64,000 nt of DNA from Thermoplasmatota archaeon (GTDB taxonomy: Archaea; Thermoplasmatota; Thermoplasmata; UBA10834). Of this stretch, positions 11,260 through 24,515 are shown piece after piece. The translations under genes were made by a program, and so were the position numbers. Positions within the stretch are counted from its first letter, which is position 1. Each line of letters starts with the position of its first letter. Under the pieces are notes generated by a model. That model searched no databases and had not been told where the DNA came from. It saw nothing but the letters and a program-made list of their open reading frames with translations. The DNA is taken from positions 128,001 to 192,000 of the forward strand of contig JBFMHR010000004.1 of the NCBI GenBank assembly GCA_040751795.1. Reading direction: 5' to 3'.

Positions 11260-11279
11260 GTTCCAGTCGCAGCGGGAGG

Positions 11280-11352
11280 AGCCACCGGGGAGGTTCGAAC
11301 TCCCGACCTGCTGATTACAAATCAGCTGCTCTTCCGGCTGAGCTACGGTGGC
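11280..11352 (-). tRNA. tRNA-Thr(TGT)
   Basis: GCCACCG/CGGTGGC acceptor, GCTGA-TT-TGT-AA-TCAGC anticodon arm, GGGAG-TTCGAAC-CTCCC T arm. Confidence 0.95.
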
Positions 11353-11519
11353 GTGGGTGCGGCCTGCTGAGTAATCAGGCAGCCCACATATAGCTTTTCA
11401 CGGGGCTGCGTTGCCAGCGGGCCGCCTAGCCAGATGGTTACCGCCGGTCCCCGCAGGGCATAACCTTTAAATGGTGGCGCTGTATCCGCAGACATCGCGC
11501 TTGAAGCGGTGATGAGCCA

Positions 11520-12377
11520 ATGACCGAGAAGGAAGGTGCCAAGAAGCACCACGCCAAGGACGAGGAGAAGAAGGAGGCCGGGGCCAAGGTCGAGGCCGGC
11601 GACATAGTGATGGTGGAGTACGAGGCCTGGGTGGAGGACACCAAGGAGCTCTTCGACACCACGAGCGAGTCCGTCGCCAAGGACAACGGCATATTCAACG
11701 AGAAGATGGTCTACGGGCCGCAGCCGCTGATCGTGGGCAAGGGGAGGCTCTTCCCTGGCCTGGACGAGCACATGGCGAAGGCCGAGGTCGGGAAGGACTA
11801 CGAGGTCCTCATACCCCCGGAGAAGGGCGCCGGCGCCAGGGACCCGAAGCTGGTCGAGCTGCACCCGGTGAGGGAGTTCCTGAGGCAGGAGATCGAGCCC
11901 AGGGTCGGGCTCGAGGTCACGGTCAAGAACAGGCCGGGCTACATCACGGCCGTCACGGCGGGCCGCGTCAGGGTCGACTTCAACAACAAGCTCGCCGGCC
12001 GCACGCTGAGGTACAAGTACAAGGTCGTGGAGAAGCCGACGAAGCAGAAGGAGGTCGCGGAGCTCATACTCAAGATGGCCTACGGCACATCGGAGGGCTT
12101 CGACGTCGAGCACCACGGCAAGGAGTACAAGGTCAAGCTCCCCGACTCGTGCAAGTACGACCAGAGGTGGATCCTCGCCAAGTACGGCGTGGTCAGGGAC
12201 CTCAGGGAGGTCCTCGGGGCGGAGACCGTCTCCTTCATCGAGGAGTACGCCAAGCCCGAGAAGAAGGAGGAGCCCAAGGAGGAGCCGAAGGCGGAGAAGC
12301 CCGCCGAGGCCGCCCCCGAGGGGAAGGCCGAGGAGAAGGCCCCCGAGGAGCTGTCGGAAGAGGACAGGAAGGAGTGA
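11520..12377 (+). CDS. slyD: FKBP-type peptidyl-prolyl isomerase, long archaeal SlyD type
   Basis: GDIVMVEY, LFDTT, VGKGRLFPGLD, IPPEKG, VRVDFNNKLAG; acidic tail. Confidence 0.9.
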   Translation: MTEKEGAKKHHAKDEEKKEAGAKVEAGDIVMVEYEAWVEDTKELFDTTSESVAKDNGIFNEKMVYGPQPLIVGKGRLFPGLDEHMAKAEVGKDYEVLIPPEKGAGARDPKLVELHPVREFLRQEIEPRVGLEVTVKNRPGYITAVTAGRVRVDFNNKLAGRTLRYKYKVVEKPTKQKEVAELILKMAYGTSEGFDVEHHGKEYKVKLPDSCKYDQRWILAKYGVVRDLREVLGAETVSFIEEYAKPEKKEEPKEEPKAEKPAEAAPEGKAEEKAPEELSEEDRKE

Positions 12378-12436
12378 GCCCACTCCGGCACATATATATC
12401 CGCAGGCGCCCAGTGACGGGCGGCCTGCCCACACGC

Positions 12437-12511
12437 GGGCGCGTGGCCTAGTCAGGATATGGCACTTGCCTCCTAAGCAAGCGGTCAAGGGTTCGAATCC
12501 CTTCGCGCCCG
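12437..12511 (+). tRNA. tRNA-Arg(CCT), integration target (attL)
   Basis: GGGCGCG/CGCGCCC acceptor, CTTGC-CT-CCT-AA-GCAAG anticodon arm, AAGGG-TTCGAAT-CCCTT T arm. Confidence 0.96.
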
Positions 12512-12514
12512 CTC

Positions 12515-13648
12515 TCACGCATAACCAGTATAATCGGCTCTCGGTTCAATCAGGGGGGAATTGAGCCTCGGAGCTGGTGCCGGCTTCTCGAAGGCTCGGA
12601 CGATTTCGAGCCTCGCGGAGTCGGCGTCTTTTCGGCAATAGTATCTCTCGGTGGTAAGGGTCGAGGAATGCCCAAGAGCGAGTGAGACACTCTCAAGCGA
12701 GACGCCCCGGTTCAGCAGGTTCTGTCCATAGGTCCTGCGGAGAGTCCTCAGCTCGAAGCGCACGCCTGACCGCTCTTCGACTTTCCTCTTCACCCTTCTC
12801 AAGTGGTTTGAGCTGTAGAACCCCGTAGGGTTCTCCAGCGGACAAACAAGCGGCTTTGCCTCAAGCAGCCCTCGCTCTGCAAGCATCTGTTCCCTTGCCT
12901 TGAGGTACCTTGCCACAGCGGACCTGAGAGGTTGGGGGATTGCCACGATTCGGTGGTCTCCGTATCTCGATTCTCCCTTGGGGTGCCGCACCTTCAGAGT
13001 CCACTGGACCGTATCCAGGTCCGAGAACTCCGCCTTCCTAAGCTCGCCAGGCCTGAGGCCCGTGTATGCATGGGTGGCTATCAGGAACCGTGCAATCTCC
13101 CCGGTCCAGCCACCTAGATTCGCTGCTGCCTTGAGAGCACTCTCAAGCTCTTCGACTGCAAGGCTCGGGCCTCTTGTTGAGACCCTCTTGGGGAAAAGGT
13201 GAGGCTTGCATGATTTCATCCTGTCCAGAACACCGTTCCCTGAGAACCTAAGCAGGGCCTGCAGGTTCTCGACCTCCTTGGATTGTGTTCCAAGAGACCA
13301 TTGACGTCTCCTGATGTCCAGCAGGATAGCCGAAACCTCTCGTTCTCCCCAGTTGCATGGATTGCGTTCCAGCAGAGGGTCCCCTCGGCAGAGCTTCTCA
13401 TATCGGCTAGCGAATGCTCTAAGCTTGCGTCCTCGCTCTGTAAGAGTCGCCTCAGCCAGGTACTGCTTGTTTGCGTCCATGTACTTCTCTATGGCCGTTC
13501 TCAGAGGGTATCGTCCCATTGACCGACACCCCCTCTTGCGTCCACGCCTCTTTTTATCCACCGAGAGAGTACCATTGCGACATTGCCGAGTCGCATTGTC
13601 TCCCTCGGAAGGGACATTGACGGGACGGGACGTTAAGTTATCGGACAT
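12515..13648 (-). CDS. Tyrosine recombinase / integrase
   Basis: YTGLRPGEL (R), HPKG (K), RTLRRTYG, LGHSS, TTERYY (Y); alternative start MGRYPL at 13519; stop codon lies inside the 24-bp att duplication. Confidence 0.95.
   Translation of the reverse strand: MSDNLTSRPVNVPSEGDNATRQCRNGTLSVDKKRRGRKRGCRSMGRYPLRTAIEKYMDANKQYLAEATLTERGRKLRAFASRYEKLCRGDPLLERNPCNWGEREVSAILLDIRRRQWSLGTQSKEVENLQALLRFSGNGVLDRMKSCKPHLFPKRVSTRGPSLAVEELESALKAAANLGGWTGEIARFLIATHAYTGLRPGELRKAEFSDLDTVQWTLKVRHPKGESRYGDHRIVAIPQPLRSAVARYLKAREQMLAERGLLEAKPLVCPLENPTGFYSSNHLRRVKRKVEERSGVRFELRTLRRTYGQNLLNRGVSLESVSLALGHSSTLTTERYYCRKDADSARLEIVRAFEKPAPAPRLNSPLIEPRADYTGYA
12521..12575 (+). repeat. Left-arm motif of the element, within the integrase 3' end; inverted relative to the right-arm copies
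   Basis: ATAACCAGTAT-N13-TTCAATCAG-N6-ATTGAGCC-T-CGGAGCT is an imperfect reverse complement of 23014-23066. Confidence 0.75.
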
Positions 13649-13651
13649 TTC

Positions 13652-14305
13652 CTAAGCCTTCGGTTCACCGACCAATTCACTAGGGGCCTCGACCCCCTCC
13701 TTATTCAATCGCGCCCTAGCCGTTACATACGAAACGCCAAACCTCTTCGCAATCTTCCTGTATCCAAGCCCCTGGGACCTTAGTTCACGCGCTAGAGCCA
13801 TATCGATGGCCTTCCTGGGCCTCCCCAATGACCTCCCCTCTGACTTCACCCTCTCAAGGCCTGCTTTGGTCCTTTCAACGATAAGGGCCCTCTCGAACTC
13901 CGCTATCTCGCCTAGAATGCCAACCAGAAGCCTACCCGTCGGAGTATTGGTCGAGAATGGCTGGTCCGAGCACTCGAACTTGATGCCCCGTTCCTCGAGC
14001 TCCCCGATAATCTGCTTGAGATTCAGGGATGAACGGGCAATCCTGTCGATCTTGGTGGTGAGGACCAGCCCGAACCTTCGAGCCCTAGCGTCATTCATCA
14101 TTCGTTTCAGGTTAGGACGATTAGGGTCTGCGCCCGAAGCCACGTCTTGATAGGTACTGTAAACGTCCCACCCCCTGGCGTGGGCGTACTCCCTTAACCG
14201 GATGAGCTGGTTCTCATTGGTCTGCCCGTCGGCCGTCGACACCCTTGCATAGAGAGCGACTTTCAGTCTCCTGTCATCCTTTGCCGTATTTCCTGATTCA
14301 TCCAT
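13652..14305 (-). CDS. Small serine recombinase (resolvase/invertase) with C-terminal HTH
   Basis: VALYARVST, RPNL, KIDRIARS, AEFERALIVERTKAG, LGRP, HTH GYRKIAKRFGVS; ATG overlaps the upstream stop. Confidence 0.93.
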   Translation of the reverse strand: MDESGNTAKDDRRLKVALYARVSTADGQTNENQLIRLREYAHARGWDVYSTYQDVASGADPNRPNLKRMMNDARARRFGLVLTTKIDRIARSSLNLKQIIGELEERGIKFECSDQPFSTNTPTGRLLVGILGEIAEFERALIVERTKAGLERVKSEGRSLGRPRKAIDMALARELRSQGLGYRKIAKRFGVSYVTARARLNKEGVEAPSELVGEPKA

Positions 14306-15239
14306 ACGAAATGTCTCCCCCGTCCTTCCTGTGCTCATAGGGATATTCCCCGTCAATTTGCCCTCCGAGAAGGCGTAGCAGGAGCTCCATCGTCCTGGCC
14401 TCGCTCTCTGCCAGCTTCTCGATAATCTCCTTGACATCGTCAACCGCTTTGCTGAGCTTATCAAGAACATCGAGAATCCTGACGTTGAAGTCGGCCTGAT
14501 TCACTAGACCTTTGATTCCATCTCTGATATTGTGGTCAGATTTTTGACACCTTATGTCCATCTCAGCAGGATAATGGGACGAACCGAACTGTGTTGGTCT
14601 ACCCCCGATTGTGAGCCTTTCCCCTTTGATGTCGACCGGCAAACAGAAGTCTGTCCTGGCCCTCCCCTCGCTCATCAACTTCAGTAGATACTCTAGGAAC
14701 TCCTTCCCGAAATGACGTTCAACCGCTGCCCTCCAGTATGGTCGATAGAAGAACTGCCCTCGCCTAGACCTGCCGTTGACAGTTAGCGTGAAGGACTGGG
14801 TCCTCAGGGTATACTGGTCATTCCCCCTCTCGCCCTTCGCTATCAGAGTATCCATCCATTCGGCGGTGAGGTCGACTAGCAGGTAGGTCCTGTGCTCGTC
14901 GTAATCAGTGAATTCATTACCGGGAAGGGAGGGGGTTACCATTATCCAGGGTTTGTCAGAACTCCCCTCGATGTAACTGATTGCCCATTCCCTGTTCTTG
15001 ATTCTATATAGTCTGTGCCCCTTCGAGTTTAGTCCCGGACTCGTCGCGATGCCCAATTTGACAAATCGTCTCAGGGCCTTCTCGATTGATGCCTTCTTAG
15101 TACCCCTCTTCTTGAACTCTGGACATTTGATGATGTCGTCGGCTGTGAACCCCCGAGATGATGAATACTGATTGCACAACGTTAGTAAGCGTTGGAGAAC
15201 GATAACCTGAGCCGACCGAAGCCTTCTCAGATGACACAC
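14298..15239 (-). CDS. Hypothetical protein with N-terminal winged-helix; candidate replication/maintenance protein
   Basis: FTADDI..SIEKALRRFVKLGIA..RLYRI resembles wHTH; lies between the RHH and resolvase genes; the Rep role is inference only. Confidence 0.6.
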   Translation of the reverse strand: MCHLRRLRSAQVIVLQRLLTLCNQYSSSRGFTADDIIKCPEFKKRGTKKASIEKALRRFVKLGIATSPGLNSKGHRLYRIKNREWAISYIEGSSDKPWIMVTPSLPGNEFTDYDEHRTYLLVDLTAEWMDTLIAKGERGNDQYTLRTQSFTLTVNGRSRRGQFFYRPYWRAAVERHFGKEFLEYLLKLMSEGRARTDFCLPVDIKGERLTIGGRPTQFGSSHYPAEMDIRCQKSDHNIRDGIKGLVNQADFNVRILDVLDKLSKAVDDVKEIIEKLAESEARTMELLLRLLGGQIDGEYPYEHRKDGGDISYG

Positions 15240-15358
15240 CCTCTAGGGCGAGAGACATAGGGACTGTCCGTCGGTCCTGCACACTGGCTCAGTCAATGAG
15301 TGGGGGATGAGGGTAGGGAGTAACGTCCTCGCTCTCACCTTCATGACATTTGGGTCGA

Positions 15359-15565
15359 TCATTGACCGCCCCCCGACGCTTGGTCCTTGCGGTATAGCTC
15401 GTAGACCGCTTCTCGCACAACACTCGCTTTTGATGACCCTAGCGCCCTGCTCCTCTTGGTTACCCAGTCGGCCAGGTTCGGTGGCAACGTGAAGATAAAT
15501 CGTTCGCCGGGTCCATCATCAACCGCGCTCACATTGGGGTTTGCTCTTGTTTTTCTCTTGAACAT
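15359..15565 (-). CDS. Ribbon-helix-helix (CopG-like) regulator
   Basis: RFIFTLPPNLADWVTKRSRALGSSKASVVREAV RHH pattern; AGGAG upstream. Confidence 0.75.
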   Translation of the reverse strand: MFKRKTRANPNVSAVDDGPGERFIFTLPPNLADWVTKRSRALGSSKASVVREAVYELYRKDQASGGGQ

Positions 15566-15622
15566 TGTTGTTCTTCTCCTTTGTTGTTGTTCTTCTCCGG
15601 GGTTCCATGTCCATCCTCCTCA

Positions 15623-15695
15623 GGACCCCGACCCTCGGGGTCCCGTCTTCCTGCTTCTCTCCGCTTGTTAGATGCGTGCTTTTGATATATAAGTG
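15623..15695 (-). promoter_or_regulatory. Promoter of the core operon with a perfect palindrome in the leader
   Basis: TTATATAT box near 15685-15692; GGACCCCGA-CCC-TCGGGGTCC at 15623-15643. Confidence 0.5.
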
Positions 15696-16055
15696 TTCCA
15701 GTATAATATAGGCCATATACTAAACGCCATCATCATATATCCGAAGTGCCATCACCCCCAACAGCCATAACTGACGAGCTTGAGTTGTACGCTGTTCTGG
15801 TGGGCTACCTGGTCTCGAAAACGGTCATTGAATCCGGCGTCGGGCGAGGGCGATAATTGACCTAATTCGACTATCTGGACGTTTCCCGGACCGTCGCGGA
15901 GATTGTCTCAAGTCGCATTTCTCGCGGGTCTAAATATATAGTATTAGTATGGGTAACGGTCCTTTTCTGAAAATGGATGCGAAGCGCGGCTCGAGAGGCA
16001 AAGAGACTAATCGGAGAATGGCCATCCGACTCTAGAGTGGGGTGGTTCAACGGCG

Positions 16056-16367
16056 GTGGAAGAAGACTTCGCGCTCTGTTGCACTGGGCTCATAATTATC
16101 GTGATTATCGCCGTGGTCTTGTGGGTCCTTGCGAAGGGCGCGGGAATCCTAGGGTCTCTCGGGCAGTGGAGGACAGGGTCCGCCCTTAAGCACATGTCTC
16201 GAGACGGTGTCACGATCCGGCAAGAGCCGCAATATCAACAGCCTCAGCAGGTGCACGGCTACCCGCCGCCCCAGGTGCAGGGTGCTGCCCGATTCTGCCC
16301 TTTCTGCGGGGCGCCAAGAATCGGTGGCGCAGCCTTCTGCCAGGGGTGCGGGAAGAGGATGCCATGA
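16056..16367 (+). CDS. Single-TM protein with C-terminal double zinc ribbon
   Basis: Hydrophobic IIIVIIAVVLWVLA; FCPFCG..FCQGCG. Confidence 0.75.
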   Translation: MEEDFALCCTGLIIIVIIAVVLWVLAKGAGILGSLGQWRTGSALKHMSRDGVTIRQEPQYQQPQQVHGYPPPQVQGAARFCPFCGAPRIGGAAFCQGCGKRMP

Positions 16368-16721
16368 CAATCGATACGGGGGGCTCAAGCTGGGCCTCCT
16401 GATAGGCTTCTCGCTCCTTGCTGGATGGGCGATAGCCTTGACCATATTCGGATGACCGTGCTCGAGCCAATGGCTTCGTCGTCGCGAAGGGTTCCCCTTC
16501 TTAGTATGTAATAGAATAACGGGACTGAACACCGAACACCGGACTTGATTGCGTGCATTGTGCGCTGTGCGCCTACATCAGAATAGTAGGAATAGTAGTA
16601 CTATGAGATTGACCAGGCGCATATCGCGCTTGAGAATTCTCGGTTTTGGGTGGCACCAAGACATATGTTATTTAATAGCGAAGTCTACCATCTATTCACC
16701 GCTGGTCTGGAGGAGACGCGA

Positions 16722-17906
16722 TTGAACGTGAATACCCACGACCCATTGAAGAAGACCCTCGGCTTGCTTGGCCCGTCATTCACTTGTGCCGTAATCACGG
16801 GACTATTCGTCTACGTAATGGTGACGCCAGACCTAATGGCGCTGATTATCTCAATCCTCGCAGGGTGGGTGTTCACGATGGTGATAATACTGTCCTGGTT
16901 TTTGGGTATCAGGGCAAAGACTAGCGGCCTGAAAAATGTCGCATACGGCCTGTTTGGCATACCAATGATAAAGCTCCCTGAGGACAGGATGGGGGAATCT
17001 GACAGAATCTATCGTGCGGGCCTGGAGACCCTGGAGGCGGATCGGGAGATTAAGGAAATCGATTTGCATCATCTACAATCCAGACTCGAAATACTCAACG
17101 CGGTAATCAAAGCCGGGCCGTATGCAATCATGTCATCGTTTGTTGCCGCAGGTTGGGCAGTCCTATCGGGTGAATCGACCGCACTGAATTCACTGCTTCT
17201 GCTCGCGGCATTCATTGTCATGCTGGTTGTGGGATGCAATCGGAAAGCCAAAGAGGCAGAAACAACACTTGGCACCCTGAAGCTCAACAAGAACAAGACA
17301 GAGGAACGATACAGAGTCAGAGAGGAGGAAGTCAAGGCAGACGCCCAGAAGGCGAAGGACGCGGCATCGGACGTCTTTGACCATTACTTCAGAGTCACGT
17401 TCAGCAGAGAGTTCTTCGACCAGCAAAGGAAGACGGCGCACAGCATGCTACCAGAGTCGACAAGTCTTAGGTCTACCAACTTGGCGTTTCGTCACAAAGA
17501 GTGCTTTAGACTAGCTACTGAGCTGAAGAAAAAGACAATCGAGTTCATTGACTGCGCCGAGGCCTGGAGGAGCCTGGTCGGCAGTATGGTCAAGTCAATC
17601 CAACCCGGGGCTCCCCACTTGGACCCCGGAGACCAGGAACGTAGGGTAGACGAGTTTTCTAGGTCTCTCATCTTCTGCATTTCCGAAAACATCGTCAAGC
17701 CGACCCAGATAGGACCCGTGTTGGACCGGAAGAAAATCGACGGTTCGTTCATCAAAGGTATTACTACCGTTCTTGAGCCACCTATCAGGTCGCTTCTTGA
17801 AGACCCTGGCCTGAAAGCGAAAGCGAGAGAGTTAGAAGGCTTAATGACCACAGGGGCAGAGCTAAAACGGAGCCTCTTGAGAGAGGTGTCAGTGCTTTAC
17901 GGATGA
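16722..17906 (+). CDS. Hypothetical 4-TM membrane protein with coiled-coil/helical C-terminal domain
   Basis: Two TM hairpins followed by a charged helical region; GGAGG at 16709 and TTATTTAATA upstream favour a start near 16722-16728. Confidence 0.7.
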   Translation: MNVNTHDPLKKTLGLLGPSFTCAVITGLFVYVMVTPDLMALIISILAGWVFTMVIILSWFLGIRAKTSGLKNVAYGLFGIPMIKLPEDRMGESDRIYRAGLETLEADREIKEIDLHHLQSRLEILNAVIKAGPYAIMSSFVAAGWAVLSGESTALNSLLLLAAFIVMLVVGCNRKAKEAETTLGTLKLNKNKTEERYRVREEEVKADAQKAKDAASDVFDHYFRVTFSREFFDQQRKTAHSMLPESTSLRSTNLAFRHKECFRLATELKKKTIEFIDCAEAWRSLVGSMVKSIQPGAPHLDPGDQERRVDEFSRSLIFCISENIVKPTQIGPVLDRKKIDGSFIKGITTVLEPPIRSLLEDPGLKAKARELEGLMTTGAELKRSLLREVSVLYG

Positions 17907-18076
17907 GCGTTGTGGTGGCAACTCAGGATCGCAAGTATTCCCGAGAAGCGCCTATAAGCCGCCGACAACGCTCAGATTGAGAAAAGTAAAGGGTTTAGGG
18001 GGTACTTTCGGGCCCCTCCAAGAACGCGATAAAACAGCAATTATGTACCTTTCAAGGTCGAGCCAGTCATTTTAGC

Positions 18077-18096
18077 GGGTTCAAATCCGGTTGAGC
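18077..18096 (+). repeat. tRNA T-arm-like relic site
   Basis: GGGTTCAAATCCGGTTGAGC, 19/20 identical to 20063-20082. Confidence 0.6.
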
Positions 18097-18130
18097 CTAC
18101 TGACAGAGTGAAGACCATAGGAGAGAAGAG

Positions 18131-18159
18131 AAGCCCTTAAGCCACCGACAGCGATTCGG
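18131..18159 (+). promoter_or_regulatory. Shared cassette promoter motif, copy 1
   Basis: CCCTTAAGCC-N7-GCGATTCGG; same spacing at 20798 and 21134. Confidence 0.65.
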
Positions 18160-18176
18160 ATGCGGAGGGAATCGGC

Positions 18177-18551
18177 GTGAATTGTACTCAATGTGGGTCG
18201 GAGAATCCGTCGAACGCGAGATTCTGCATTGCCTGCGGTTCGTCCTTGGCGAGAACGGCGTTTGGGATGCAGGCAGTTGCGGGACTGAGTGAAACACAAC
18301 GAATCGAAATCGTATCTGACAACGTAACCAGCAAGACCGAGAAACTTGCCTGTAGGGTACTGGGAGGCACCGCATGGATAGTCGTTTCTGCTGGGACATT
18401 CATAATCGCCATTGCATGGCTCAGTCTCATGGACATGAACTACTATGACGACGAACAGTTGATGCTCAAGATGATTGGCTACGGAGTGGTTGCATACGGA
18501 ATCTCAGCCATCCTCTTTGGGTTCAGAGCCTTCATCAGGACTCCGAGATGA
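18177..18551 (+). CDS. Zinc-ribbon + 2-TM protein
   Basis: MNCTQCGSENPSNARFCIACG; two hydrophobic helices. Confidence 0.8.
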   Translation: MNCTQCGSENPSNARFCIACGSSLARTAFGMQAVAGLSETQRIEIVSDNVTSKTEKLACRVLGGTAWIVVSAGTFIIAIAWLSLMDMNYYDDEQLMLKMIGYGVVAYGISAILFGFRAFIRTPR

Positions 18552-18735
18552 CATACAGGCGCATCGAAAGCGTCTAGGACGCGTTTCCTTCGATGGCCGT
18601 AACGCAACCCGTCGTCAGAGGTATCTTACCCCTGCCGAGACGTGTTAGAGGCGAATCCTCGGCTATTCCTGAATAGACCTGCATCTGAAGGCGCGAAAAG
18701 ACCATATGACGGCATGAGTATTCGCGGGGGAGGAC

Positions 18736-19287
18736 ATGGCGATCACCTGCTCCAACTGCGGCGCGAAAGGTCTGCTCGAGGGCGACCGATTCTGTAAATG
18801 GTGCGGCAACGTACTCCACATACTAGGGCCGGACCCGGAGGAAACAGCCACTCGGTGGCACATAGAGACCAATAGAACGACACACACGCGATTGAACTTC
18901 TGGTTGATAACCGAGGGCCTCTTGCTCACTGCATATGCAGCCGCGTCAATCGAACCGTCAGGCGATGCTACCGCTTATGTTCGCATCGTGATGTCTGCAA
19001 CGGGAGTGTTCTTCACGGTGGCTTGGTACCTTCTTTATGTTCGCTCGTGGCGGTACACTACCTGGTATTTCGAAAGGGCAAGGGCCATGAGTTGGTGGAG
19101 ATATGGGGGTTGGAAACATGGCACACCTGGTAATCCGCGCGACATACCTCCTTGGTCCGTGTATCCTCCCGAGGAACAGTGGTCTGTCTGGTCAGGAGGC
19201 GGTCTTGGCGCGGGCATAGGCGCAGGTTTGTTTCTAATTGCCTTCTTGTCAATATGGATTACTTTGATGGCGGTGTCGTTCTCCTGA
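18736..19287 (+). CDS. Zinc-ribbon + 3-TM protein
   Basis: CSNCG..FCKWCG; RLNFWLITEGLLLTAY helix; GGAGG RBS. Confidence 0.8.
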   Translation: MAITCSNCGAKGLLEGDRFCKWCGNVLHILGPDPEETATRWHIETNRTTHTRLNFWLITEGLLLTAYAAASIEPSGDATAYVRIVMSATGVFFTVAWYLLYVRSWRYTTWYFERARAMSWWRYGGWKHGTPGNPRDIPPWSVYPPEEQWSVWSGGGLGAGIGAGLFLIAFLSIWITLMAVSFS

Positions 19288-19371
19288 GTCAGAGAGAGCG
19301 GAGGGAAGAGCGGAGAGATTCAACCTCGTCGCCAATCGTCCTGAACCTTGGCTATTCGCGTGCAGAAAAGG

Positions 19372-19482
19372 GAAAGGGGTTTGGGTCCGTGCTCAATTTC
19401 CGTTGATTGACGACTAAGCCCGACATACTGGCTTGCTAGCAGAGCGAATCCCTTCGCGCCCGCTCTCAACCATATCCAGCAT
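19372..19482 (+). repeat. attP-like junction: right arm + 24-bp tRNA core + truncated left arm
   Basis: GGGTTT..CTCAAT-N5-TTGATTGAC-N13-ATACTGGCT-N11-CGAATCCCTTCGCGCCCGCTCTCA (core identical to 12494-12517), then ATATCCAGCAT at the same offset as the left arm. Confidence 0.85.
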
Positions 19483-19835
19483 GATCAGTTGTTTCTCCAC
19501 CCCATGACTGGTTCGGTGCTCGGAGAAGGAGAAGTAAGGGTGGAGGGCCGCAGAAAGGACAATATAGGCTCACGGATGTCTTCGGTTCATATGAGTGCGA
19601 CAGACAGGGAGGGCCCCACCACGAGCAATGAGCATCATTCGCGCCTCCTTCTATCCAAGGGATGATGGGTTGCGATACTTGCTCTTGCATCCGCACCATT
19701 GGCATTCATCTACATAGTGACCGAGGGGAGCGTAGGGCGATGGGTGGCATGGCTAGCCATTCCGCCTCTGCTTGTCGCCCTCTTATACTTCTATTATGTC
19801 TCCTACAGGGCTGTGTTCGGGGGCTCCAGACCTCG

Positions 19836-20033
19836 CTAATGGAACATGATTGGTTGGAGACTCAAGAGAGTGGATGTCTGGTCCCCTGATAACTCCTCCA
19901 TTTCCTGTCTTAGCTTGACCCGAGCCCTGTAAATCCTCATGTAGCAGGTCCAGCATAGCTTCTTTGTCTTCACAGGAACTCTCCCACACTGAATGCACGC
20001 ATGTCCAGGGCGGTACTTCCTGGGGTGCTTCAC
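19836..20033 (-). CDS. Small zinc-finger protein, possibly 5'-truncated at the tRNA fragment
   Basis: CIQCG..LCWTCY; candidate GTG start directly abuts the tRNA fragment at 20034. Confidence 0.45.
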   Translation of the reverse strand: MKHPRKYRPGHACIQCGRVPVKTKKLCWTCYMRIYRARVKLRQEMEELSGDQTSTLLSLQPIMFH

Positions 20034-20074
20034 TGGCACTTGCCTCCTGGGCAAGTGGTCAAGGGTTCGAATCC
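20034..20074 (+). pseudogene. tRNA-Arg(CCT) internal fragment (anticodon arm to T loop)
   Basis: 38/41 identical to 12460-12500. Confidence 0.85.
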
Positions 20075-20129
20075 GGTTGAGCACACCCCACTGAGACAAG
20101 CCCAAAATAGGGAACGGGAAAAGGGTCCG

Positions 20130-20660
20130 TTATGGAGAGAGCGACTCGTAGACTTTGTCGACCGCCTTCTCTATCTCGTCAAAGCAGACGTCATCGTTGC
20201 AGGCATTCAGTTTGCCCTTCAGGTTCTTGATCTTTATGCTCAAATCTGTCTTCGTCGATGAATAGGACAACAGTGAGTCCTTGGCGTAGCCGATGATGCC
20301 ACCGGTTCCCGAGACGCCGGCAACCACAGTGGTGATTGCGCCCAAGGCATCAGACCATGTGATGGCACCTATTGCGGTCAGGGACGTGATGACCGAAGAA
20401 GCAATGACAATGGCCATCTGGGTCCTTATGTGCCGGAGTTTGAGCTCCACAGCTTCCTCTAAGCCACTAATTCTGATTCCGATGTCCACCTTCCGGTTTA
20501 CTATGCTCCTTCCTATACTCTTCCTTATGTTCTTGGCCGAGCGTGCACTTGACGATACTGCATGCGCCCAAATCCAGTAGGCTATCTCTTTCCTAATCAA
20601 TCCATTCACCCTCTCTTCTCCTCGAACCACCGAGGCAGTACTGTGAATCAACCTGTGCAA
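20130..20660 (-). CDS. 2-TM hairpin protein with helical flanks (SLATT-like architecture)
   Basis: IVIASSVITSLTAIGAI and LGAITTVVAGVSGTGGIIG followed by a coiled coil; true start may be GTG 20609. Confidence 0.6.
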   Translation of the reverse strand: MHRLIHSTASVVRGEERVNGLIRKEIAYWIWAHAVSSSARSAKNIRKSIGRSIVNRKVDIGIRISGLEEAVELKLRHIRTQMAIVIASSVITSLTAIGAITWSDALGAITTVVAGVSGTGGIIGYAKDSLLSYSSTKTDLSIKIKNLKGKLNACNDDVCFDEIEKAVDKVYESLSP

Positions 20661-20691
20661 TATTAGTCGATTTCCTCAAGAATGGGTGAAG

Positions 20692-20778
20692 GAAGAGGGT
20701 TTGAGGACGAGCGAATTTTCCCTCTGATTGAACTGGCATCGCGACTTACTGGCTCTGTGAAGGTGCGAATCCCCTTCG
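20692..20778 (+). repeat. Degenerate right arm + tRNA core (att copy 2)
   Basis: GGGTTT..CTGATTGAA-N13-TTACTGGCT-N11-CGAATCCCCTTCG, same spacing as the other copies. Confidence 0.75.
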
Positions 20779-20797
20779 GTTCAATTCATAAGAGACA

Positions 20798-20823
20798 CCC
20801 TTAAGCCGACGAGAGCGATTCGG
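20798..20823 (+). promoter_or_regulatory. Shared cassette promoter motif, copy 2
   Basis: CCCTTAAGCC-N7-GCGATTCGG, then GGAGG and ATG. Confidence 0.65.
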
Positions 20824-20842
20824 GCAGGGAGGAGACGGTGAG

Positions 20843-21085
20843 ATGGTCATGCACTGTGCTAATTGTGGGTTCCCACTTGAGCCGAATGCGAGGTTCTGTC
20901 CAAGGTGTAGCTCGGTCTCTCTGGCAATCAGCCAAAGGGAACCTAGTCTAGAAAGAATCGCACTCGCAATTGAGCGGAATGCGACTGCGACCGAGAACAT
21001 ATACAACCTTATGCTCGCCGCGGCTGCCGTGACCGTTATCGTCGGCATACTTCTCGGAATTGTAGTAACTGGAGGTTGGCCCTAA
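20843..21085 (+). CDS. Zinc-ribbon + 1-TM protein
   Basis: HCANCGFPLEPNARFCPRCS; C-terminal TM. Confidence 0.78.
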   Translation: MVMHCANCGFPLEPNARFCPRCSSVSLAISQREPSLERIALAIERNATATENIYNLMLAAAAVTVIVGILLGIVVTGGWP

Positions 21086-21130
21086 ACGTAGGATGAGCGT
21101 CCAGGTCCGGGCTCGACTTCCTGCTGACGC

Positions 21131-21157
21131 AAGCCCTTAAGCCCTCTAAGGCGATCC
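21131..21157 (+). promoter_or_regulatory. Shared cassette promoter motif, copy 3
   Basis: AAGCCCTTAAGCC-N7-GCGATCC, then GAGGAG and ATG. Confidence 0.65.
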
Positions 21158-21174
21158 AGACACGAGGAGATGGC

Positions 21175-22023
21175 ATGGGTGGAACCCTTTCCCGTGTGTG
21201 TCTAGTGTTAGTAGTGTGCGCAGCGACACTTCTGATGTCCCTGGGTGCGTGTTGTGCGGCTCCAACCTCGACGACCGACAGTCGAACAGTGACTTTCTCA
21301 ATAGATCGACCAGATCTATGGCTTGACGCGAGGCTTCCTGTTGTCGCTACGTGGACTGACAGCTTCACGGCCTCAAAGGATGATGTCCTCGCACTCTCGT
21401 ACACGCTAGAATCTCAGGCAGCGAGCGTCGAGCTGACTCTTCCTCTCAGCGACTACCTTTGGTGGCTAGGCGTCGATGATGTTACTATCGATGTTCCTCT
21501 GGGAAACACTCCGTTGGTCGCGGAGTCAATCTCTCTAACCTCACTTGCAGGAATACCCTCTTGGGCAGCCTCACTGGACCTCAGGTTGAGTGGGTCCGTG
21601 CGTATGCACGACCTCTGCTGTGTCTCGGGTTCGGCGCTCATTCAAACGCCCGCTTCGGCGGTGACGTGGAGTACTTGGTCGACAGAGACGGCTCAGGTTA
21701 TTGCTCCGGAAAGCCCTGGTGCGTCTGTTCGCGCAACCCTCGCCTATGCGCTGGGGATAGGACTCACCCTGTCAGTCCTTGGAGCTGATGTCTACGATAT
21801 CATTCCTTCCTCTACGGTCTTGAGTGTGGTTGGCGCTCCGAGCCTTGAGACAGAGATTGATGTGCCGACACCAGCATCCGCAATGTCAATAGTCATGATT
21901 GGAGTTGCCATAGCTGCTGTCGTCGCGGTTGCTGCAATTCTGCTCATGGTCTTGCGACGCAAGAGAGGCAGTTCTGGGGCAGCCGAGACTGAATCGCCAC
22001 CTGAGGAACCGGAGATGCCATAA
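21175..22023 (+). CDS. Secreted, C-terminally membrane-anchored surface protein
   Basis: Signal peptide, Ser/Thr-rich beta region, TM followed by RRKR. Confidence 0.75.
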   Translation: MGGTLSRVCLVLVVCAATLLMSLGACCAAPTSTTDSRTVTFSIDRPDLWLDARLPVVATWTDSFTASKDDVLALSYTLESQAASVELTLPLSDYLWWLGVDDVTIDVPLGNTPLVAESISLTSLAGIPSWAASLDLRLSGSVRMHDLCCVSGSALIQTPASAVTWSTWSTETAQVIAPESPGASVRATLAYALGIGLTLSVLGADVYDIIPSSTVLSVVGAPSLETEIDVPTPASAMSIVMIGVAIAAVVAVAAILLMVLRRKRGSSGAAETESPPEEPEMP

Positions 22024-22379
22024 GACGCGTTCTTCTCGGTGGCCGTAACGCGAAGTGCATTCGGAGGCATCGAGCCCTTGCCGAGAGGAGACCCCCCTCG
22101 AATCCCAGGGATAGATCGGACGACATGGCCCTTTCTTCTCTACTGCGCCCTCGCATGAAATCTTTGAGGGGCATCCTTTGGCGATTGCGAGGAGAATCTC
22201 CTGAATCTAAGGTCTTGTCATGCTGGGCTCCATAAGGCCTTGTAGCGCAAAGGAAGGCCAGATAGGCAAAGGGTTCGAAGGAAGATTGGACGGCTAGGTC
22301 AATTCAGCGGTCATGACTTAGAATCTTCGGAGCAAAGATTTATCGCCTCTAATGCATTAAGGATTTTCGGAGGAAGACT

Positions 22380-22976
22380 GTGGGTGTTAAGAATTGTCCT
22401 TACTGCGGAACTGCGAACCTTCTCAATGCAGTGCAATGCGTGAGATGTGGAACTATGCTCGCGCTACCGACTCCTCCAAGACCTCCTTCTCATGCTGGTG
22501 CGATAGCAGCTGGTGTTGTTGCCTTCATAGTGGTAATAGTGGTTGTCCTTGCCTATACTAGCATCCTTTCAGTTCCTTCTGGAGACGGTGGTGTCGTCGA
22601 CCCAGTAGGCACAGTAACGACAAACATCCGTACTGATGAGAAGAATTGGTTTGACTTTGAATCAGGAAGCCAGAACGTCCCAAACTGTGATTTCTATGTA
22701 GATAGTACGCTTAATTTCTATACTTCCGTTGCTATAGGAGATTCGATGTTTATCTCCGATGTCGGCCCCGTGAGCGGTCTCGGTCAGGTTACGATTATTC
22801 CAACTTCTGGCTGGACTGAAGCATGCTCAATTATCTTGGGACACGGATATGTCGTTCAGACTACGGATAATCACTATTACGGGATGTATGCCGTTGACTG
22901 GATGACGGACGCAGTTTTTGGCGGAGTGATTGGCCTTCAATTCAAATGGTATTTCATGGGAGATGTTGCAGTTTAG
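22380..22976 (+). CDS. Zinc-ribbon + TM + extracellular beta-domain protein
   Basis: NCPYCGTANLLNAVQCVRCG, Pro linker, TM, aromatic-rich C-terminal domain; GGAGG RBS. Confidence 0.8.
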   Translation: MGVKNCPYCGTANLLNAVQCVRCGTMLALPTPPRPPSHAGAIAAGVVAFIVVIVVVLAYTSILSVPSGDGGVVDPVGTVTTNIRTDEKNWFDFESGSQNVPNCDFYVDSTLNFYTSVAIGDSMFISDVGPVSGLGQVTIIPTSGWTEACSIILGHGYVVQTTDNHYYGMYAVDWMTDAVFGGVIGLQFKWYFMGDVAV

Positions 22977-23002
22977 ACGACACCGGTTAGAGAAGAAGCC
23001 TT

Positions 23003-23091
23003 GAAAGGGGTTTAGCTCCGGCCTCAATCCGGTCTGATTGAATGGTTCTCCCGGCATACTGGCTATTCAAAGGTTCGAATCCCTTCGCGCC
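23003..23091 (+). repeat. Outermost right arm + attR
   Basis: AGCTCCG..CTCAAT-N5-CTGATTGAA-N13-ATACTGGCTAT then TCAAAGGTTCGAATCCCTTCGCGCC (24/25 identical to 12485-12509); GC rises downstream. Confidence 0.88.
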
Positions 23092-23250
23092 AGCCATTTC
23101 CATCCTTGAATGGCGCGAGGGCGTTTGAGATCCCTTCTGCCTCGGGCCACAGGCCCGAGGGTCGGGCGTTCATCCTGCTGGTTGGCTCACCGGGAGCAGT
23201 GGGGACTGCCGTGATAAGGTATATCCCCCCTGACTGGAGTGCGCTTCTGC

Positions 23251-23709
23251 ATGGCGACGCTGAGATGCCCTAGGTGCGGCAACATCGATAGCAGTTTCCA
23301 GTCACGGTTCTGCAACCTCTGCGGGGCGGCTCTTGTGGATGCCCAGGCGAAGGAGGAGATGATTGACGCGAAGCATTGGGAACTGCCGTTCATCCTCTCG
23401 ATTCACAGGGGGGAGTTGATCGTGAGGCCCGGCTCGGAGGACAGCTTCATCGAGTCCAGACGCAAGATCCTCGGCGCGAGAGCGGTGGTTGTGCATTCGA
23501 GAGCGACCTGGATCCGCAACAACGTCGTCATGGCCCTCTACTTCTTGATCGTCGCCGTCCTGCTCACTGCGGTCATGGCTTCCGCCGGGCTGCCGTGGAT
23601 CGGGGTATCAATCGGACTGTTGATGTTTGCGGTGTACTCACCCTACCTAGTGATGTTCATCTGGTCGCTGCAGCCGATAAACGACAGGAACAGATACTAC
23701 GGGCCTTGA
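23251..23709 (+). CDS. Zinc-ribbon + 2-TM protein (outside attR)
   Basis: RCPRCG..FCNLCG; two C-terminal TMs. Confidence 0.75.
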   Translation: MATLRCPRCGNIDSSFQSRFCNLCGAALVDAQAKEEMIDAKHWELPFILSIHRGELIVRPGSEDSFIESRRKILGARAVVVHSRATWIRNNVVMALYFLIVAVLLTAVMASAGLPWIGVSIGLLMFAVYSPYLVMFIWSLQPINDRNRYYGP

Positions 23710-23984
23710 GTCACGGCGGACATGGCAACCTGATTGGGCGCCCGGAGAGCCGTGAGGGGGAACGGAGTCCGGCTCCCGGCCCGGAAACCCCCCTCATCGA
23801 GTCACATCCCAGGTCTGCCGGCCTCTCAAGGCCTCGGCCCCCTTCGCCTTCGCTCCCCCCTCCGCCAGTGGTTGCTGACTAATATAACGACAAGTTTTTA
23901 TATAATCCCTACTCAAATATACCCTGGACGGGGGAGAGGCACCGGGACGCCCCGGGCCGACCCCCTTTGGATGAGGTGTAAGAG

Positions 23985-24449
23985 ATGGGAACACCACAGC
24001 AACCCAGTTCTAGGATGTGCGTCCAGTGCGGGAAGCCTATCGCCCAGGACGCGAACGTGTGCCCGTACTGCGGCAAGGACTACCGTGTCCAGGCAGCGCC
24101 GGCGGCCAAGAAGAAGACCGTGATGCCCCTGGTGGGCGGCATCCTGATCGTGGTCGGCGGCGTCCTCGCCCTGCTGGCAGGCATAGGCCTGGTGGCCAGC
24201 GTCGGGGCCTTCGACTCCCTGATGATCGTCGACGTCGAGGGCGTGGACATGCTCGAGGACCTCCTGACGGCCTGCGGCATACTGTTCATAATATTCGGCC
24301 TGATAGGACTCCTCGGAGGAGTGTTCGCCATAATGAGGAAGCACTTCGGCCTGGCGATACTCGGCGGCATATTCGCCCTCTTCGGGTGGTTCCTCCCGGC
24401 GCTGATCGGGCTCATCCTGGTCGGGATGTCGAAGGAAGAGTTCGAGTGA
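23985..24449 (+). CDS. Zinc-ribbon + multi-TM membrane protein with host codon usage
   Basis: CVQCG..CPYCG; Gly-rich TMs ending SKEEFE; TTTTATATA box and GAGGTG upstream. Confidence 0.85.
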   Translation: MGTPQQPSSRMCVQCGKPIAQDANVCPYCGKDYRVQAAPAAKKKTVMPLVGGILIVVGGVLALLAGIGLVASVGAFDSLMIVDVEGVDMLEDLLTACGILFIIFGLIGLLGGVFAIMRKHFGLAILGGIFALFGWFLPALIGLILVGMSKEEFE

Positions 24450-24515
24450 CCGGGTTCCCCGGCCGACGGACCTGAAACCCCTTCCAAGCCTTTGGTTTCC
24501 ACTCATATGCGCAGG

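What the first reader, a model, noticed from the sequence alone, without database searches (positions are those of the whole stretch)
12437..23091. Integron-like cassette accretion platform at tRNA-Arg(CCT): one recombinase core serving a serial array of att-bounded cargo modules
Seen: a single intact tyrosine integrase sits at the tRNA 3' end. Three att-like repeats (19372-19468, 20692-20778, 23003-23091) share the same fixed architecture: GGGTTT, then TGATTGA(A/C)-N13-(A/T)TACTGGCT-N11-CGAATCCC, with GGGTTT 68-69 nt before the core. They divide the island into a recombinase-bearing module and two recombinase-free cargo modules of about 1.3 and 2.3 kb. Spacer sequences have diverged while motifs and spacings are kept, which suggests selection on the sites. 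Established: tRNA-targeting tyrosine integrases can form tandem arrays. Inference: the distal modules are minimal non-autonomous cassettes that the resident integrase can excise, reorder or capture, giving an archaeal gene-capture system without attC sites.
Basis: partly seen in the sequence, partly recalled or inferred. Interest (0 to 1): 0.85.

Follow-up and report, generated by a model that had tools for sequence, protein, structure and literature searches.

The report
Stacked mobile elements at tRNA-Arg
About 11 kb of foreign DNA beside an arginine tRNA gene of an uncultured Thermoplasmata archaeon is a stack of one intact and several decayed integrating elements, which is a known way for genomic islands to grow and not a demonstrated integron-like gene-capture machine.

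Summary
The three repeats are real and far beyond chance. The full motif occurs 3 times in the 2.05 Mb genome, all here.

- a fourth, inverted copy inside the integrase 3' end
- a serine recombinase beside the integrase
- a second arm type ("X", 17976-18101)
- a tRNA-Arg/tRNA-Val hybrid fragment (20034-20082)
- a fourth module

A relative's empty site sets the island at 12513-23856.

The repeats are the right arms of an element family found across this Thermoplasmata family. Each arm is followed by a displaced tRNA 3' end. I counted 129 motif hits against 10 for a reversed control in 36 related genomes. Related arms sit next to the ends of other tRNAs.

The middle repeat's core fits tRNA-Ala better than tRNA-Arg, so the stack was not built by serial capture at this site alone. 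The integrase-less modules have decayed or missing left arms. Their cargo was not found elsewhere.

Best reading: tandem or nested accretion followed by decay, as with CIMEs (integrase-less remnants that keep their att sites). The resident integrase may co-excise distal modules.

A true trans-mobilised cassette system is not excluded. Compact integrase-less modules recur next to tRNAs in relatives. No circles or reshuffled cassettes were seen.

The parts
12437..12512 (+). tRNA-Arg(CCT), the integration target. Its last 19 nt (12494-12512) are the shared core.
   Evidence: ARAGORN; Rfam tRNA 66.2 bits. The locus tRNA-Thr(TGT)/gene/tRNA-Arg(CCT) is syntenic in 18 of 18 further family genomes fetched.
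12515..13648 (-). Tyrosine integrase, 377 aa, apparently intact. Its last ~20 codons (12524-12571) double as the left (P') arm.
   Evidence: Pfam and PHROGs. Closest solved relative is XerA, 2.8e-08. Catalytic R, K, R, H and Y are invariant. nhmmer ARM1 hit at 12524-12571 on the - strand.
13652..14470 (-). Small serine recombinase (resolvase/invertase type, catalytic domain then HTH), directly upstream of the integrase. Together they form a res-int operon.
   Evidence: Pfam Resolvase 3.1e-40 and HTH_7; PHROG DNA invertase 1.3e-50. 10 of 16 family hits lie directly upstream of an integrase hit (coordinates).
14298..17906 (.). Module-1 genes of unknown function: a 313-aa ORF at 14298-15239 (-), a 103-aa Zn-ribbon membrane ORF at 16056-16367 (+), and a 418-aa membrane ORF at 16650-17906 (+).
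   Evidence: No Pfam or PHROG family. Atlas hits were all below usable scores.
17976..18101 (+). X arm: a second, more conserved kind of right arm, ending in a tRNA-Val-like T-loop and 3' end (18077-18096).
   Evidence: Alignment with 5 relatives; nhmmer 9e-32; core 1-2 mismatches from tRNA-Val ends; no conserved RNA fold.
18108..19287 (+). M motif plus D1 gene-start elements (18108-18168) and two Zn-ribbon membrane-protein genes (18177-18551, 18736-19287).
19366..19468 (+). Right arm 1 (ARM1) plus core. This is attR of module 1: a 24-nt perfect repeat of 12494-12517.
19464..19486 (+). Decayed left-arm remnant of module 2 (19 of 23 nt match 12513-12535). No integrase follows it.
   Evidence: Repeat D8, 88%; alignment; tblastn negative.
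20034..20082 (+). Hybrid tRNA fragment: the tRNA-Arg(CCT) D-arm-to-T-loop part, fused at ..GAATCC to the same Val-like 3' part as the X core.
   Evidence: Repeats D7 (93%) and D12 (95%); 95% to relatives' tRNA-Arg; three-way alignment; not called as a tRNA.
20130..20660 (-). Module-2 cargo: a 176-aa membrane protein of no known family.
20688..20784 (+). Right arm 2 plus core. The core is Ala-like (AATCCCCTTCGGTTCA). Only 8 nt are identical to the tRNA-Arg core.
20790..22976 (+). Module-3 cargo: D1 elements (20790, 21126), an 80-aa Zn-ribbon membrane protein (20843-21085), a 282-aa secreted/membrane protein (21175-22023) and a 198-aa Zn-ribbon protein (22380-22976).
   Evidence: The only family homologues of the 282-aa protein outside G000 are distant: one 31% identical in G004 and one partial, 39% identical, in G016; 3 of 46 genomes had a match, G000 included.
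23002..23094 (+). Right arm 3 plus tRNA-Arg core (20 nt exact, then 1 mismatch).
23095..23856 (+). Module 4: one Zn-ribbon membrane-protein gene (23239-23709), ending in a decayed tRNA-Arg 3' end (23843-23856). This is the true right border of the island.
   Evidence: Empty site of G003 aligned; X1 joints 12516/12518 to 23880 and a loose end before 23856; sequence; Pfam.

Best explanation
Window 12513-23856 is a composite genomic island at tRNA-Arg(CCT). It was built by site-specific integration of members of one family of integrative elements that is widespread in this Thermoplasmata family.

**The complete element.** A full element carries a res-int operon (small serine recombinase, then tyrosine integrase) next to the tRNA. 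Its attachment site has two inverted arms of about 55 nt flanking a tRNA-derived core. The left arm is the last ~20 codons of the integrase gene. Module 1 (12513-19463) is such an element and is apparently intact.

**The other modules.** Modules 2, 3 and 4 are integrase-less leftovers of related elements. They keep their right arm plus a displaced tRNA 3' end.

**Where strands exchange (inferred).** Crossover seems to occur at the conserved T-loop sequence RAATCC. That explains why family members sit at several different tRNAs and why hybrid cores exist. The foreign cores inside the stack (Val-like, Ala-like) imply that parts of it arrived as ready-made composites, by accretion elsewhere and then co-mobilisation.

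**Likely present-day activity (inferred).** The integrase can excise module 1 between the 24-nt repeats. It can possibly also excise module 1 together with distal modules, using the distal right arms (cis-mobilisation). Modules 2-4 on their own are probably inert or nearly so.

**Shown versus inferred.** Shown: the anatomy, the family-wide arms, the empty site, the decay series and the heterogeneous cores. Inferred: integrase binding to the arms, the crossover position and any present-day excision.
For: **Anatomy**
- The integrase abuts the tRNA 3' end, and a 24-nt perfect direct repeat bounds module 1.
- The left arm aligns as an inverted copy of the three right arms.
- GC is 0.46-0.60 inside the island against 0.62-0.72 outside.

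**Family-wide arms**
- The arm motif gives 129 hits against 10 for the reversed control in the 36 other family genomes (my addition of the rows).
- Arms precede the 3' ends of several tRNAs: Arg-CCT, Arg-TCG, Ala-TGC and others.
- Complete right-arm/core/left-arm junctions occur in relatives: L028, L035, L018 and L050.

**Empty site**
- In G003 the right flank starts 25 nt after the tRNA and aligns to window 23857 onward.
- X1 contigs join the tRNA end to about 23856-23880.

**Decay series at this same tRNA**
- G022 keeps integrase residues 240-377 (83% identical).
- G024 keeps residues 264-377.
- G007 keeps 59 aa (85% identical) in a 1.75-kb element.
- L050 keeps 19 aa.
- Many C-terminal-only integrase fragments that reach residue 377 occur in relatives.

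**Remnants and foreign cores in the window**
- A left-arm remnant follows att2.
- The internal cores are heterogeneous, and there is an Arg/Val hybrid.

**Module 1 as a separate unit**
- A 5285-nt contig in run X2 is a module-1 variant. Its integrase part differs at 79 of 1170 positions and its right end at 10 of 895 positions. It ends at both cores and module 2 is absent there.

**Evolutionary breakpoints at the cores**
- Homology between G004 and G010 stops right after a core.

**Literature**
- Accretion and CIMEs (passages of PMC5704250).
- Successive integrations pushing older elements outward, and degenerated remnants (passages of bioRxiv 10.1101/2020.12.28.424599).
- Tandem arrays in archaea (passages of PMC6563490 and PMC8371274).
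Against: - No excision product, circle or go-back joint was seen. All 10 joints listed are skips. The runs hold only 0.10-0.15 of the sampled words, so this is a weak test.
- Simple decay does not obviously explain why compact integrase-less modules recur directly after a tRNA or a fossil core with no trace of a left arm, starting with the same gene-start motif. Examples are G017 (9 nt after tRNA-Arg), G010/G004 at tRNA-Arg(TCG), and L050. Also, 8 of 13 X arms are followed by the motif within 5-13 nt.
- In the orthologous integrase-less module of G004 and G010 the arm plus core shows 1 difference in about 85 nt, against roughly 5-8% nearby. This hints at constraint, but it is a single case.
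- The Ala reading of the att3 core is not certain. A 37-nt deletion plus two 1-nt indels in an Arg core plus left arm would give nearly the same letters (my reading).
- No replication, virion or excisionase gene was recognised in module 1, so its autonomy is assumed, not shown.
Confidence: 0.68

Rival explanations
1. Integron-like cassette system. Small non-autonomous units of the form [gene-start motif, one to three genes, right arm, T-loop core] would be mobilised in trans by a family integrase. They would be inserted at any T-loop core, whether a tRNA or a resident arm-plus-core site, and would build arrays. The right arm would play the part of attC and the tRNA T-loop the part of attI.
For: - Compact integrase-less modules lie directly next to tRNAs with no left-arm trace in at least three independent loci (G017, G010/G004, L050).
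- Co-oriented arrays of arms 0.3-4 kb apart, without integrases, occur in several relatives (L013/L014, L019, L018, L023).
- Arms far outnumber close integrase homologues.
- Homology blocks between species start or stop at cores or inside arms.
- Paralogous modules occur within one array.
- Hybrid cores show that different T-loop sites do recombine with each other.
- The arm of an orthologous integrase-less module is almost unchanged between two species.
Against: - No circle or reshuffled order was seen.
- The cargo of modules 2 and 3 was found in no other context in 40 relatives by DNA. By protein there were only two distant homologues (31% and 39% identity) among the 45 other family genomes.
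- Module 2 carries a left-arm remnant, so it was once a full element.
- Graded integrase truncations at the same locus document decay.
- Module 2's Ala-like core sits on its right side. That is where integration at a tRNA-Ala puts it, not where in-situ capture would (my inference).
- Deletions between the repeated gene-start motifs, or partial excision via internal arms, could also produce the compact modules.
- The arms do not fold like attC.
Confidence: 0.2
2. The serine recombinase, not the tyrosine integrase, acts on the repeats (or on the X arm or the M motif). The arrays would be its resolution, inversion or shuffling substrates.
For: - The res-int operon is conserved: 10 of 16 resolvase hits lie directly upstream of an integrase.
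- The role of the serine recombinase is unexplained.
- The X arm lies about 400 nt from res in G022:C55.
Against: - The arms are an inverted copy of the integrase 3' end and flank tRNA-derived cores. That is the classic geometry of tyrosine integrases.
- Arms occur in many genomes without any resolvase hit. The resolvase was found in 11 of 46 genomes, while the motif was found in 33 of the 36 family genomes searched.
- All arms in an array are direct repeats, and no paired inverted sites typical of invertases were seen.
Confidence: 0.05
3. The repeats are not recombination sites at all. They would be transcribed or regulatory elements (a small RNA, terminators or promoters), or local duplications of the integrase 3' end.
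For: - The arms begin with a conserved AAAGGGGTTTAG box.
- In relatives they are often preceded by the same motif that precedes genes.
Against: - No Rfam family matches.
- There is no excess folding of either strand and no covariation in the X arm.
- Each repeat ends in a displaced tRNA 3' end, and the island border matches an empty site.
- The three copies are only 63-75% alike while the outer cores are 95-100% alike, so they are not recent local duplications.
Confidence: 0.03

Closest known systems
Tandem accretion of integrative elements with cis-mobilisable elements (CIMEs), e.g. ICESt1-related elements of Streptococcus (passages of the review PMC5704250 read; the primary papers of Pavlovic 2004 and Bellanger 2011 seen only as its references)
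   Same: An element with an integrase sits in tandem with derivatives that lost their recombination genes but kept att sites, at the 3' end of a tRNA gene. Co-excision through distal att sites is possible.
   Different: The host is archaeal and no conjugation genes are recognised. The left arms of the integrase-less modules are mostly gone, so they meet the CIME definition (attL and attR both retained) only in part. Internal cores derive from other tRNAs. The recombinase module is a res-int pair.
Tycheposon islands of Prochlorococcus (passages of bioRxiv 10.1101/2020.12.28.424599 read)
   Same: tRNA-targeting tyrosine-recombinase elements integrate repeatedly at the same tRNA, push older ones outward and leave fragmented integrases and partial tRNAs. 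Cargo stays behind as island genes.
   Different: The domain of life and the integrase lineage differ. No replication module was recognised here. Activity was shown there by experiment, and none is shown here.
Arrays of integrated tyrosine-recombinase elements in archaea (passages of PMC6563490 and PMC8371274 read)
   Same: One integration site is re-used to give tandem elements. The integrase is lost after integration. Tandem elements exchange modules.
   Different: In the passages I read, these papers do not describe long inverted arms with one arm inside the integrase gene, a res-int operon, or Thermoplasmata elements. PMC8371274 says archaeal serine recombinases were never fully investigated.
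Integrons, including those reported in Archaea (bioRxiv 10.1101/2022.02.06.479319; search listing and start of abstract only)
   Same: A tyrosine recombinase sits next to an array of short modules that each end in a conserved recombination site.
   Different: There are no attC-like folded sites. Modules carry their own gene-start or promoter-like elements. The sites end in tRNA 3' ends. The integrase is nearest to XerA-type enzymes among solved structures. New and old modules are whole or decayed elements.
SSV-type 'suicidal' archaeal integrases (PMC7253208; search listing and start of abstract only)
   Same: Part of the attachment site overlaps the integrase open reading frame.
   Different: Here only the arm lies in the gene's last codons, not the crossover core. 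Integration therefore leaves the gene whole.

Membership tests
tRNA-integrated genomic island made by a tyrosine integrase | A tyrosine integrase gene at one end, next to the tRNA | tested here: met
   Integrase at 12515-13648 with its stop codon 3 nt from the tRNA end; catalytic residues conserved.
tRNA-integrated genomic island made by a tyrosine integrase | A direct repeat of the tRNA 3' segment at the far border | tested here: met
   A 24-nt exact repeat at 19445-19468, a 20-nt exact repeat at 23072-23091, and a decayed copy at 23843-23856.
tRNA-integrated genomic island made by a tyrosine integrase | An unoccupied site in relatives, with flanks that match | tested here: met
   In G003 the right flank (82% identical to window 23880-27443) starts 25 nt after the tRNA. 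X1 contigs show the same joint.
Tandem accretion with CIME-like derivatives | Derivatives that lost integration genes but keep both attL and attR | tested here: inconclusive
   No integrase or resolvase remnant in modules 2-4. Right arms are intact. The left arm is a 23-nt remnant in module 2 and absent in modules 3 and 4.
Tandem accretion with CIME-like derivatives | Excision of the composite by the neighbour's integrase | not testable with these tools
   The runs found hold only 0.10-0.15 of the sampled words, and no go-back joint is listed.
Integron | attC sites: imperfect inverted repeats that fold as single strands (feature recalled from general knowledge) | tested here: not met
   Six folds (three arms, both strands) give z-scores from -0.48 to +0.49 against shuffles.
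Integron | An IntI-type integrase with its characteristic extra segment, plus an adjacent attI and a cassette promoter (recalled) | not tested
   Only the generic Phage_integrase match and an XerA-like nearest structure were obtained. No IntI-specific model was run.
Integron | The same cassettes found in different orders or contexts | tested here: not met
   The cargo of 17900-23300 has no DNA match in 40 relatives; only arms, motifs and tRNA pieces match. The 282-aa protein has only two distant family homologues, at 31% and 39% identity.
SSV-type integrase elements | The integrase gene is split by integration | tested here: not met
   The gene is whole in the integrated state.

The most novel reading that the evidence does not exclude
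This Thermoplasmata family hosts a tRNA-T-loop-based analogue of the integron. A res-int recombinase module mobilises in trans small units, each with its own gene-start motif, of the form [gene-start motif, genes for small membrane or zinc-ribbon proteins, ~100-nt arm, T-loop core]. It stacks them at any tRNA or resident arm site, which gives the co-oriented integrase-less arrays seen in many relatives. The window's island would be one such platform caught with its recombinase still present.
Probability: 0.2. Interest if true: 0.8.

Novelty: new variant of a known kind. Interest (0 to 1): 0.42.

Why it matters
For this window the result is mostly sobering.

At the family level several things are worth a specialist's look:
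- This is an element family I did not find described in my four literature searches.
- It has a conserved serine-plus-tyrosine recombinase operon.
- It has long inverted arms, one of which is coded inside the integrase gene.
- It has two arm dialects.
- Hybrid tRNA cores point to strand exchange in the universal T-loop, and so to promiscuous use of many tRNAs.

Recurrent integrase-less mini-modules make the question of decay against trans-mobilisation directly testable. Only three components need cloning: the integrase, the resolvase and about 100-nt sites.

The cargo is almost wholly small zinc-ribbon membrane proteins of unknown role.

Tried and rejected
**Searches that found nothing useful**
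- Rfam at E up to 1 over 11000-25000 found only the two tRNAs.
- A viral-contig scan with the integrase and a second with a six-sequence alignment both returned no relatives. The element is therefore not represented there. This does not show that it is not a virus.
- ESM Atlas look-ups for the 313-aa and 418-aa proteins gave no usable hit.
- PHROGs and Pfam gave nothing for the cargo beyond zinc ribbons.

**Ideas tested and dropped**
- I tested the X arm as a structured RNA. It gave 7 predicted pairs and none with a compensatory change, so I rejected this.
- I tested whether the right arm encodes a peptide homologous to the integrase tail. The frames carry stops and lack starts in the window copies (my reading), so I rejected this.
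- I first read the att3 core as an Arg core with a deletion into a left arm. I now prefer the tRNA-Ala reading but cannot exclude the first.
- I first took the motif after the cores to be a conserved left end of mini-elements. It turned out to precede most genes of such islands, so by itself it marks gene starts, not element ends.

**Limits of the tests**
- The metagenome scan for complete right-arm/core/left-arm junctions found only 2 stretches, which are two copies of one locus. No free circular form was obtained.
- The sequencing runs held small shares (0.15 and 0.10). The raw-read runs X3 and X4 laid reads almost only on the neighbouring tRNA-Thr and gave no depth on the island. They say nothing on excision.
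- The automatic classification flagged only 2 left arms as integrase-side, although by eye at least 4 more rows are (L028 13370, L029 9043, L035 1247, L050 2602). I therefore give its ARM1 counts as approximate.
- Supplementary files of the papers were not opened. Those of the tycheposon preprint and of PMC6563490 may hold examples of integrase-less tandem modules that bear on novelty.

Full report
**1.

ARAGORN and Rfam place tRNA-Arg(CCT) at 12437-12512. A 377-aa tyrosine integrase lies at 12515-13648 on the minus strand and ends 3 nt from the tRNA. Pfam Phage_integrase scores 5.5e-14. The nearest solved relative is XerA. R199, K224, R304, H327 and Y337 are invariant in an alignment with five relatives.

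tblastn finds no integrase or resolvase remnant in the two distal modules.

**2.

- A small serine recombinase (13652-14470, Pfam Resolvase 3.1e-40) lies directly upstream of the integrase.
- The half motif TGATTGA-N15-TACTGG has a fourth, inverted copy at 12525-12552 inside the last codons of the integrase. About 45-55 nt of that region align as an inverted copy of the right-hand repeats. The attachment site of the free element would therefore read right arm / core / left arm, with the left arm coding the integrase tail.
- A second, better conserved kind of arm (X, 17976-18101) ends in a tRNA-Val-like T-loop and 3' end.
- At 20034-20082 a piece of tRNA-Arg(CCT) is fused at ..GAATCC to the same Val-like tail. 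The piece is 95% identical to relatives' genes and 93% to the window's own.
- The core of the middle repeat shares only 8 exact bases with tRNA-Arg. It matches the tRNA-Ala(TGC) end at 15 of 16 positions.
- The island does not end at 23091. In relative G003 the tRNA is followed after 25 nt by sequence 82% identical to window 23880-27443. The G003 tRNA end aligns with a decayed copy at 23843-23856. Contigs of run X1 show the same joint.

The island is therefore 12513-23856, with a fourth module of 0.76 kb. GC content agrees with these borders.

**3. The repeats belong to a family of elements, not to this locus**

With up to 1 mismatch, the arm motif is found 129 times in the 36 other genomes of the taxonomic family. 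The reversed control gives 10 (my addition of the rows). In the window's own genome every arm lies in this island.

In the fetched loci the right arm reads GAAAGGGGTTTAGCTCCGG..CTCAATCC..TGATTGAA-N13-GACWTACTGGCT. It is followed after 8-12 nt by the 3' part of one of several tRNAs: Arg-CCT, Arg-TCG, Ala-TGC and others. The left arm is always the integrase tail (..IE...D[YF]TGYA, then stop), followed by the reverse complement of a tRNA end. Complete right-arm/core/left-arm junctions occur between tandem elements in relatives.

So the pattern of kept motifs and spacing with diverged spacers is the family signature. Any three independent members would show it, and it does not show selection on the sites in place.

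The three window arms are 63-75% alike while the outer cores are 95-100% alike. That fits independent arrivals and not local duplication.

Records of relatives are titled Thermoplasmata archaeon MAGs.

**4. The same tRNA in relatives**

The tRNA-Thr(TGT)/gene/tRNA-Arg(CCT) neighbourhood is syntenic throughout the family. I examined 23 loci: 18, plus the window, G007, G022, G024 and one metagenome contig.
- Six show arms or integrase pieces of this family: the window, G007, G022, G024, G017 and L050.
- Only the window has a whole integrase.
- The others give a graded series. Integrase residues 240-377 survive in G022, 264-377 in G024, the last 59 aa in a 1.75-kb element in G007 (same genus), and 19 aa in L050.
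- Within the genus the space between tRNA and flank ranges from 25 nt (G003) through about 0.3, 1.2 and 2.7 kb to 11.3 kb in the window.

This is a fast-turnover integration hot spot with abundant decay. However, what varies is which elements are present, not the order of shared cassettes. The cargo of modules 2 and 3 has no DNA match in 40 relatives. The 282-aa protein has only two distant family homologues, at 31% and 39% identity.

**5. How the stack was probably built**

Module 1 is bounded by a perfect 24-nt repeat and has both arms, so it is the candidate active element. In run X2 a 5285-nt contig is a variant of it. It carries the integrase (79 differences in 1170 positions), about 3.2 kb of other DNA, and the right end (10 differences in 895 positions). 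It ends at both cores, and module 2 is not present there. Module 1 therefore exists as a separate unit.

After the first right arm and core comes a 23-nt remnant of a left arm (19 of 23 identical to that of module 1). Module 2 thus began as a complete element.

The Ala-like core to the right of module 2, the Val-like core of the X arm inside module 1, and the Arg/Val hybrid cannot arise by serial integration into tRNA-Arg alone. They point to earlier integrations at other tRNAs, and to transfer of composites or recombination between different T-loop sites.

All junctions between element-derived and tRNA-derived letters fall at or just after RAATCC. From this I infer that strand exchange takes place in the conserved T-loop. 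That would also explain the family's many tRNA targets. This step is inference.

The review passages on CIMEs describe the same logic in bacteria: integration, then decay to an att-bounded remnant, then accretion of a new element, with occasional co-transfer (PMC5704250). The tycheposon preprint describes incoming elements pushing older ones outward and leaving fragmented integrases and partial tRNAs (10.1101/2020.12.28.424599). Tandem arrays are also noted for archaea (PMC6563490, PMC8371274).

**6. What keeps the bolder reading alive**

- In relatives, compact integrase-less modules lie directly after a tRNA with no left-arm trace. They often begin with the gene-start motif GAAAAGGCCATAGG. 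In G017 it starts 9 nt after tRNA-Arg(CCT). G010 and its orthologue in G004 show the same at tRNA-Arg(TCG). L050 is a further case.
- Eight of 13 X arms are followed by that motif within 5-13 nt.
- Co-oriented arrays of both arm types without integrases occur in several genomes.
- Between G004 and G010, homology of 92% runs through the tRNA, module and arm and stops right after the core. Each genome then continues with a different left arm.
- Between G015 and G018 a 98% identical module changes partner inside the arm spacer.
- The G004/G010 arm plus core has 1 difference in about 85 nt, against roughly 5-8% around it. This is one case only.

These facts fit trans-mobilised mini-elements. They also fit partial excision through internal arms, deletions between the many repeated gene-start motifs, and replacement of neighbours at the cores. 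I put the cassette model at about 0.2.

**7. It is not an integron by membership**

The arms do not fold (six folds, z-scores from -0.48 to +0.49). Modules carry their own gene-start elements. The sites end in tRNA ends. I ran no IntI-specific test.

**8. Literature and limits**

- Four searches gave the comparators above. None of the listed papers appeared to describe this element family, but I did not search by sequence and read passages only.
- No RNA data, no circles and no biochemical evidence are available.
- The autonomy of module 1 is assumed, because no replication or excisionase gene was recognised.

Noticed in passing
window 13652-14470 with 12515-13648; relatives: A small serine recombinase is encoded directly upstream of the tyrosine integrase. 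This res-int order recurs: 10 of 16 resolvase hits in the family lie directly upstream of an integrase hit. Its role (multimer resolution, directionality, or its own sites) is unknown.
   Followed up: partly
window 18108-18121 and 18695-18708; many copies in L013, L014, L019, L022, L046: A conserved motif GAAAAGGCCATAGG(GGCGGAA) precedes most genes of these islands, with a GGAGG-like box and the start codon 12-22 nt later. It also directly precedes several right arms. With up to 1 mismatch there are only 3 copies in the whole G000 genome, so it is element-specific and not a general host signal.
   Followed up: partly
window 17943-17985, 18126-18168, 20790-20832, 21126-21168: A four-copy repeat (GCCCTTAAGCC..GCGATTCGG) lies 35-50 nt upstream of the starts of small zinc-ribbon membrane-protein genes. 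It is probably a shared promoter or leader. It is also seen after the tRNA in G017 and after the X arm in G022:C55.
   Followed up: no
window 18575-18640 and 22021-22086: A 66-nt repeat (71% identical) sits just after the stop codons of genes in modules 1 and 3. The breakpoint of the run-X2 variant of module 1 falls at its start (18574).
   Followed up: no
window 18077-18096 and 20063-20082: A 20-nt direct repeat (19 of 20 identical) of a Val-like T-loop and 3' end brackets about 2 kb that spans the first right arm and core. The left copy follows the X arm and the right copy follows a tRNA-Arg piece. The event that produced this arrangement is unexplained.
   Followed up: partly
window 16056-16367, 18177-18551, 18736-19287, 20843-21085, 22380-22976, 23239-23709, 23985-24449: Seven small proteins with a zinc ribbon (N- or C-terminal) plus transmembrane segments lie in or just beyond the island. 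This is the dominant cargo type and its function is unknown. The last gene (23985-24449) lies in a stretch (23857 to about 24535) that is missing next to tRNA-Arg in the other three genera, so it may be an older, fixed layer of the island.
   Followed up: partly
G000 contig C1:390679-391740: A second integrase of the same broad family (36% identical) is interrupted by 1 TGA and 2 TAG codons. No arm motif lies near it in the genome-wide scan.
   Followed up: no
window 19836-20105 (-): An 89-aa ORF carries a CxxC..CxxC motif and a basic tail, and its 5' part is antisense to the hybrid tRNA fragment. It has no family match. It may be a small DNA-binding protein or may not be a gene.
   Followed up: no
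L019 (G010:C46) about 3756-3990 and 9878-10100: An X arm plus core, the gene-start motif and an ARM1 arm plus core follow each other with no gene between them, like an empty slot between two sites.
   Followed up: no
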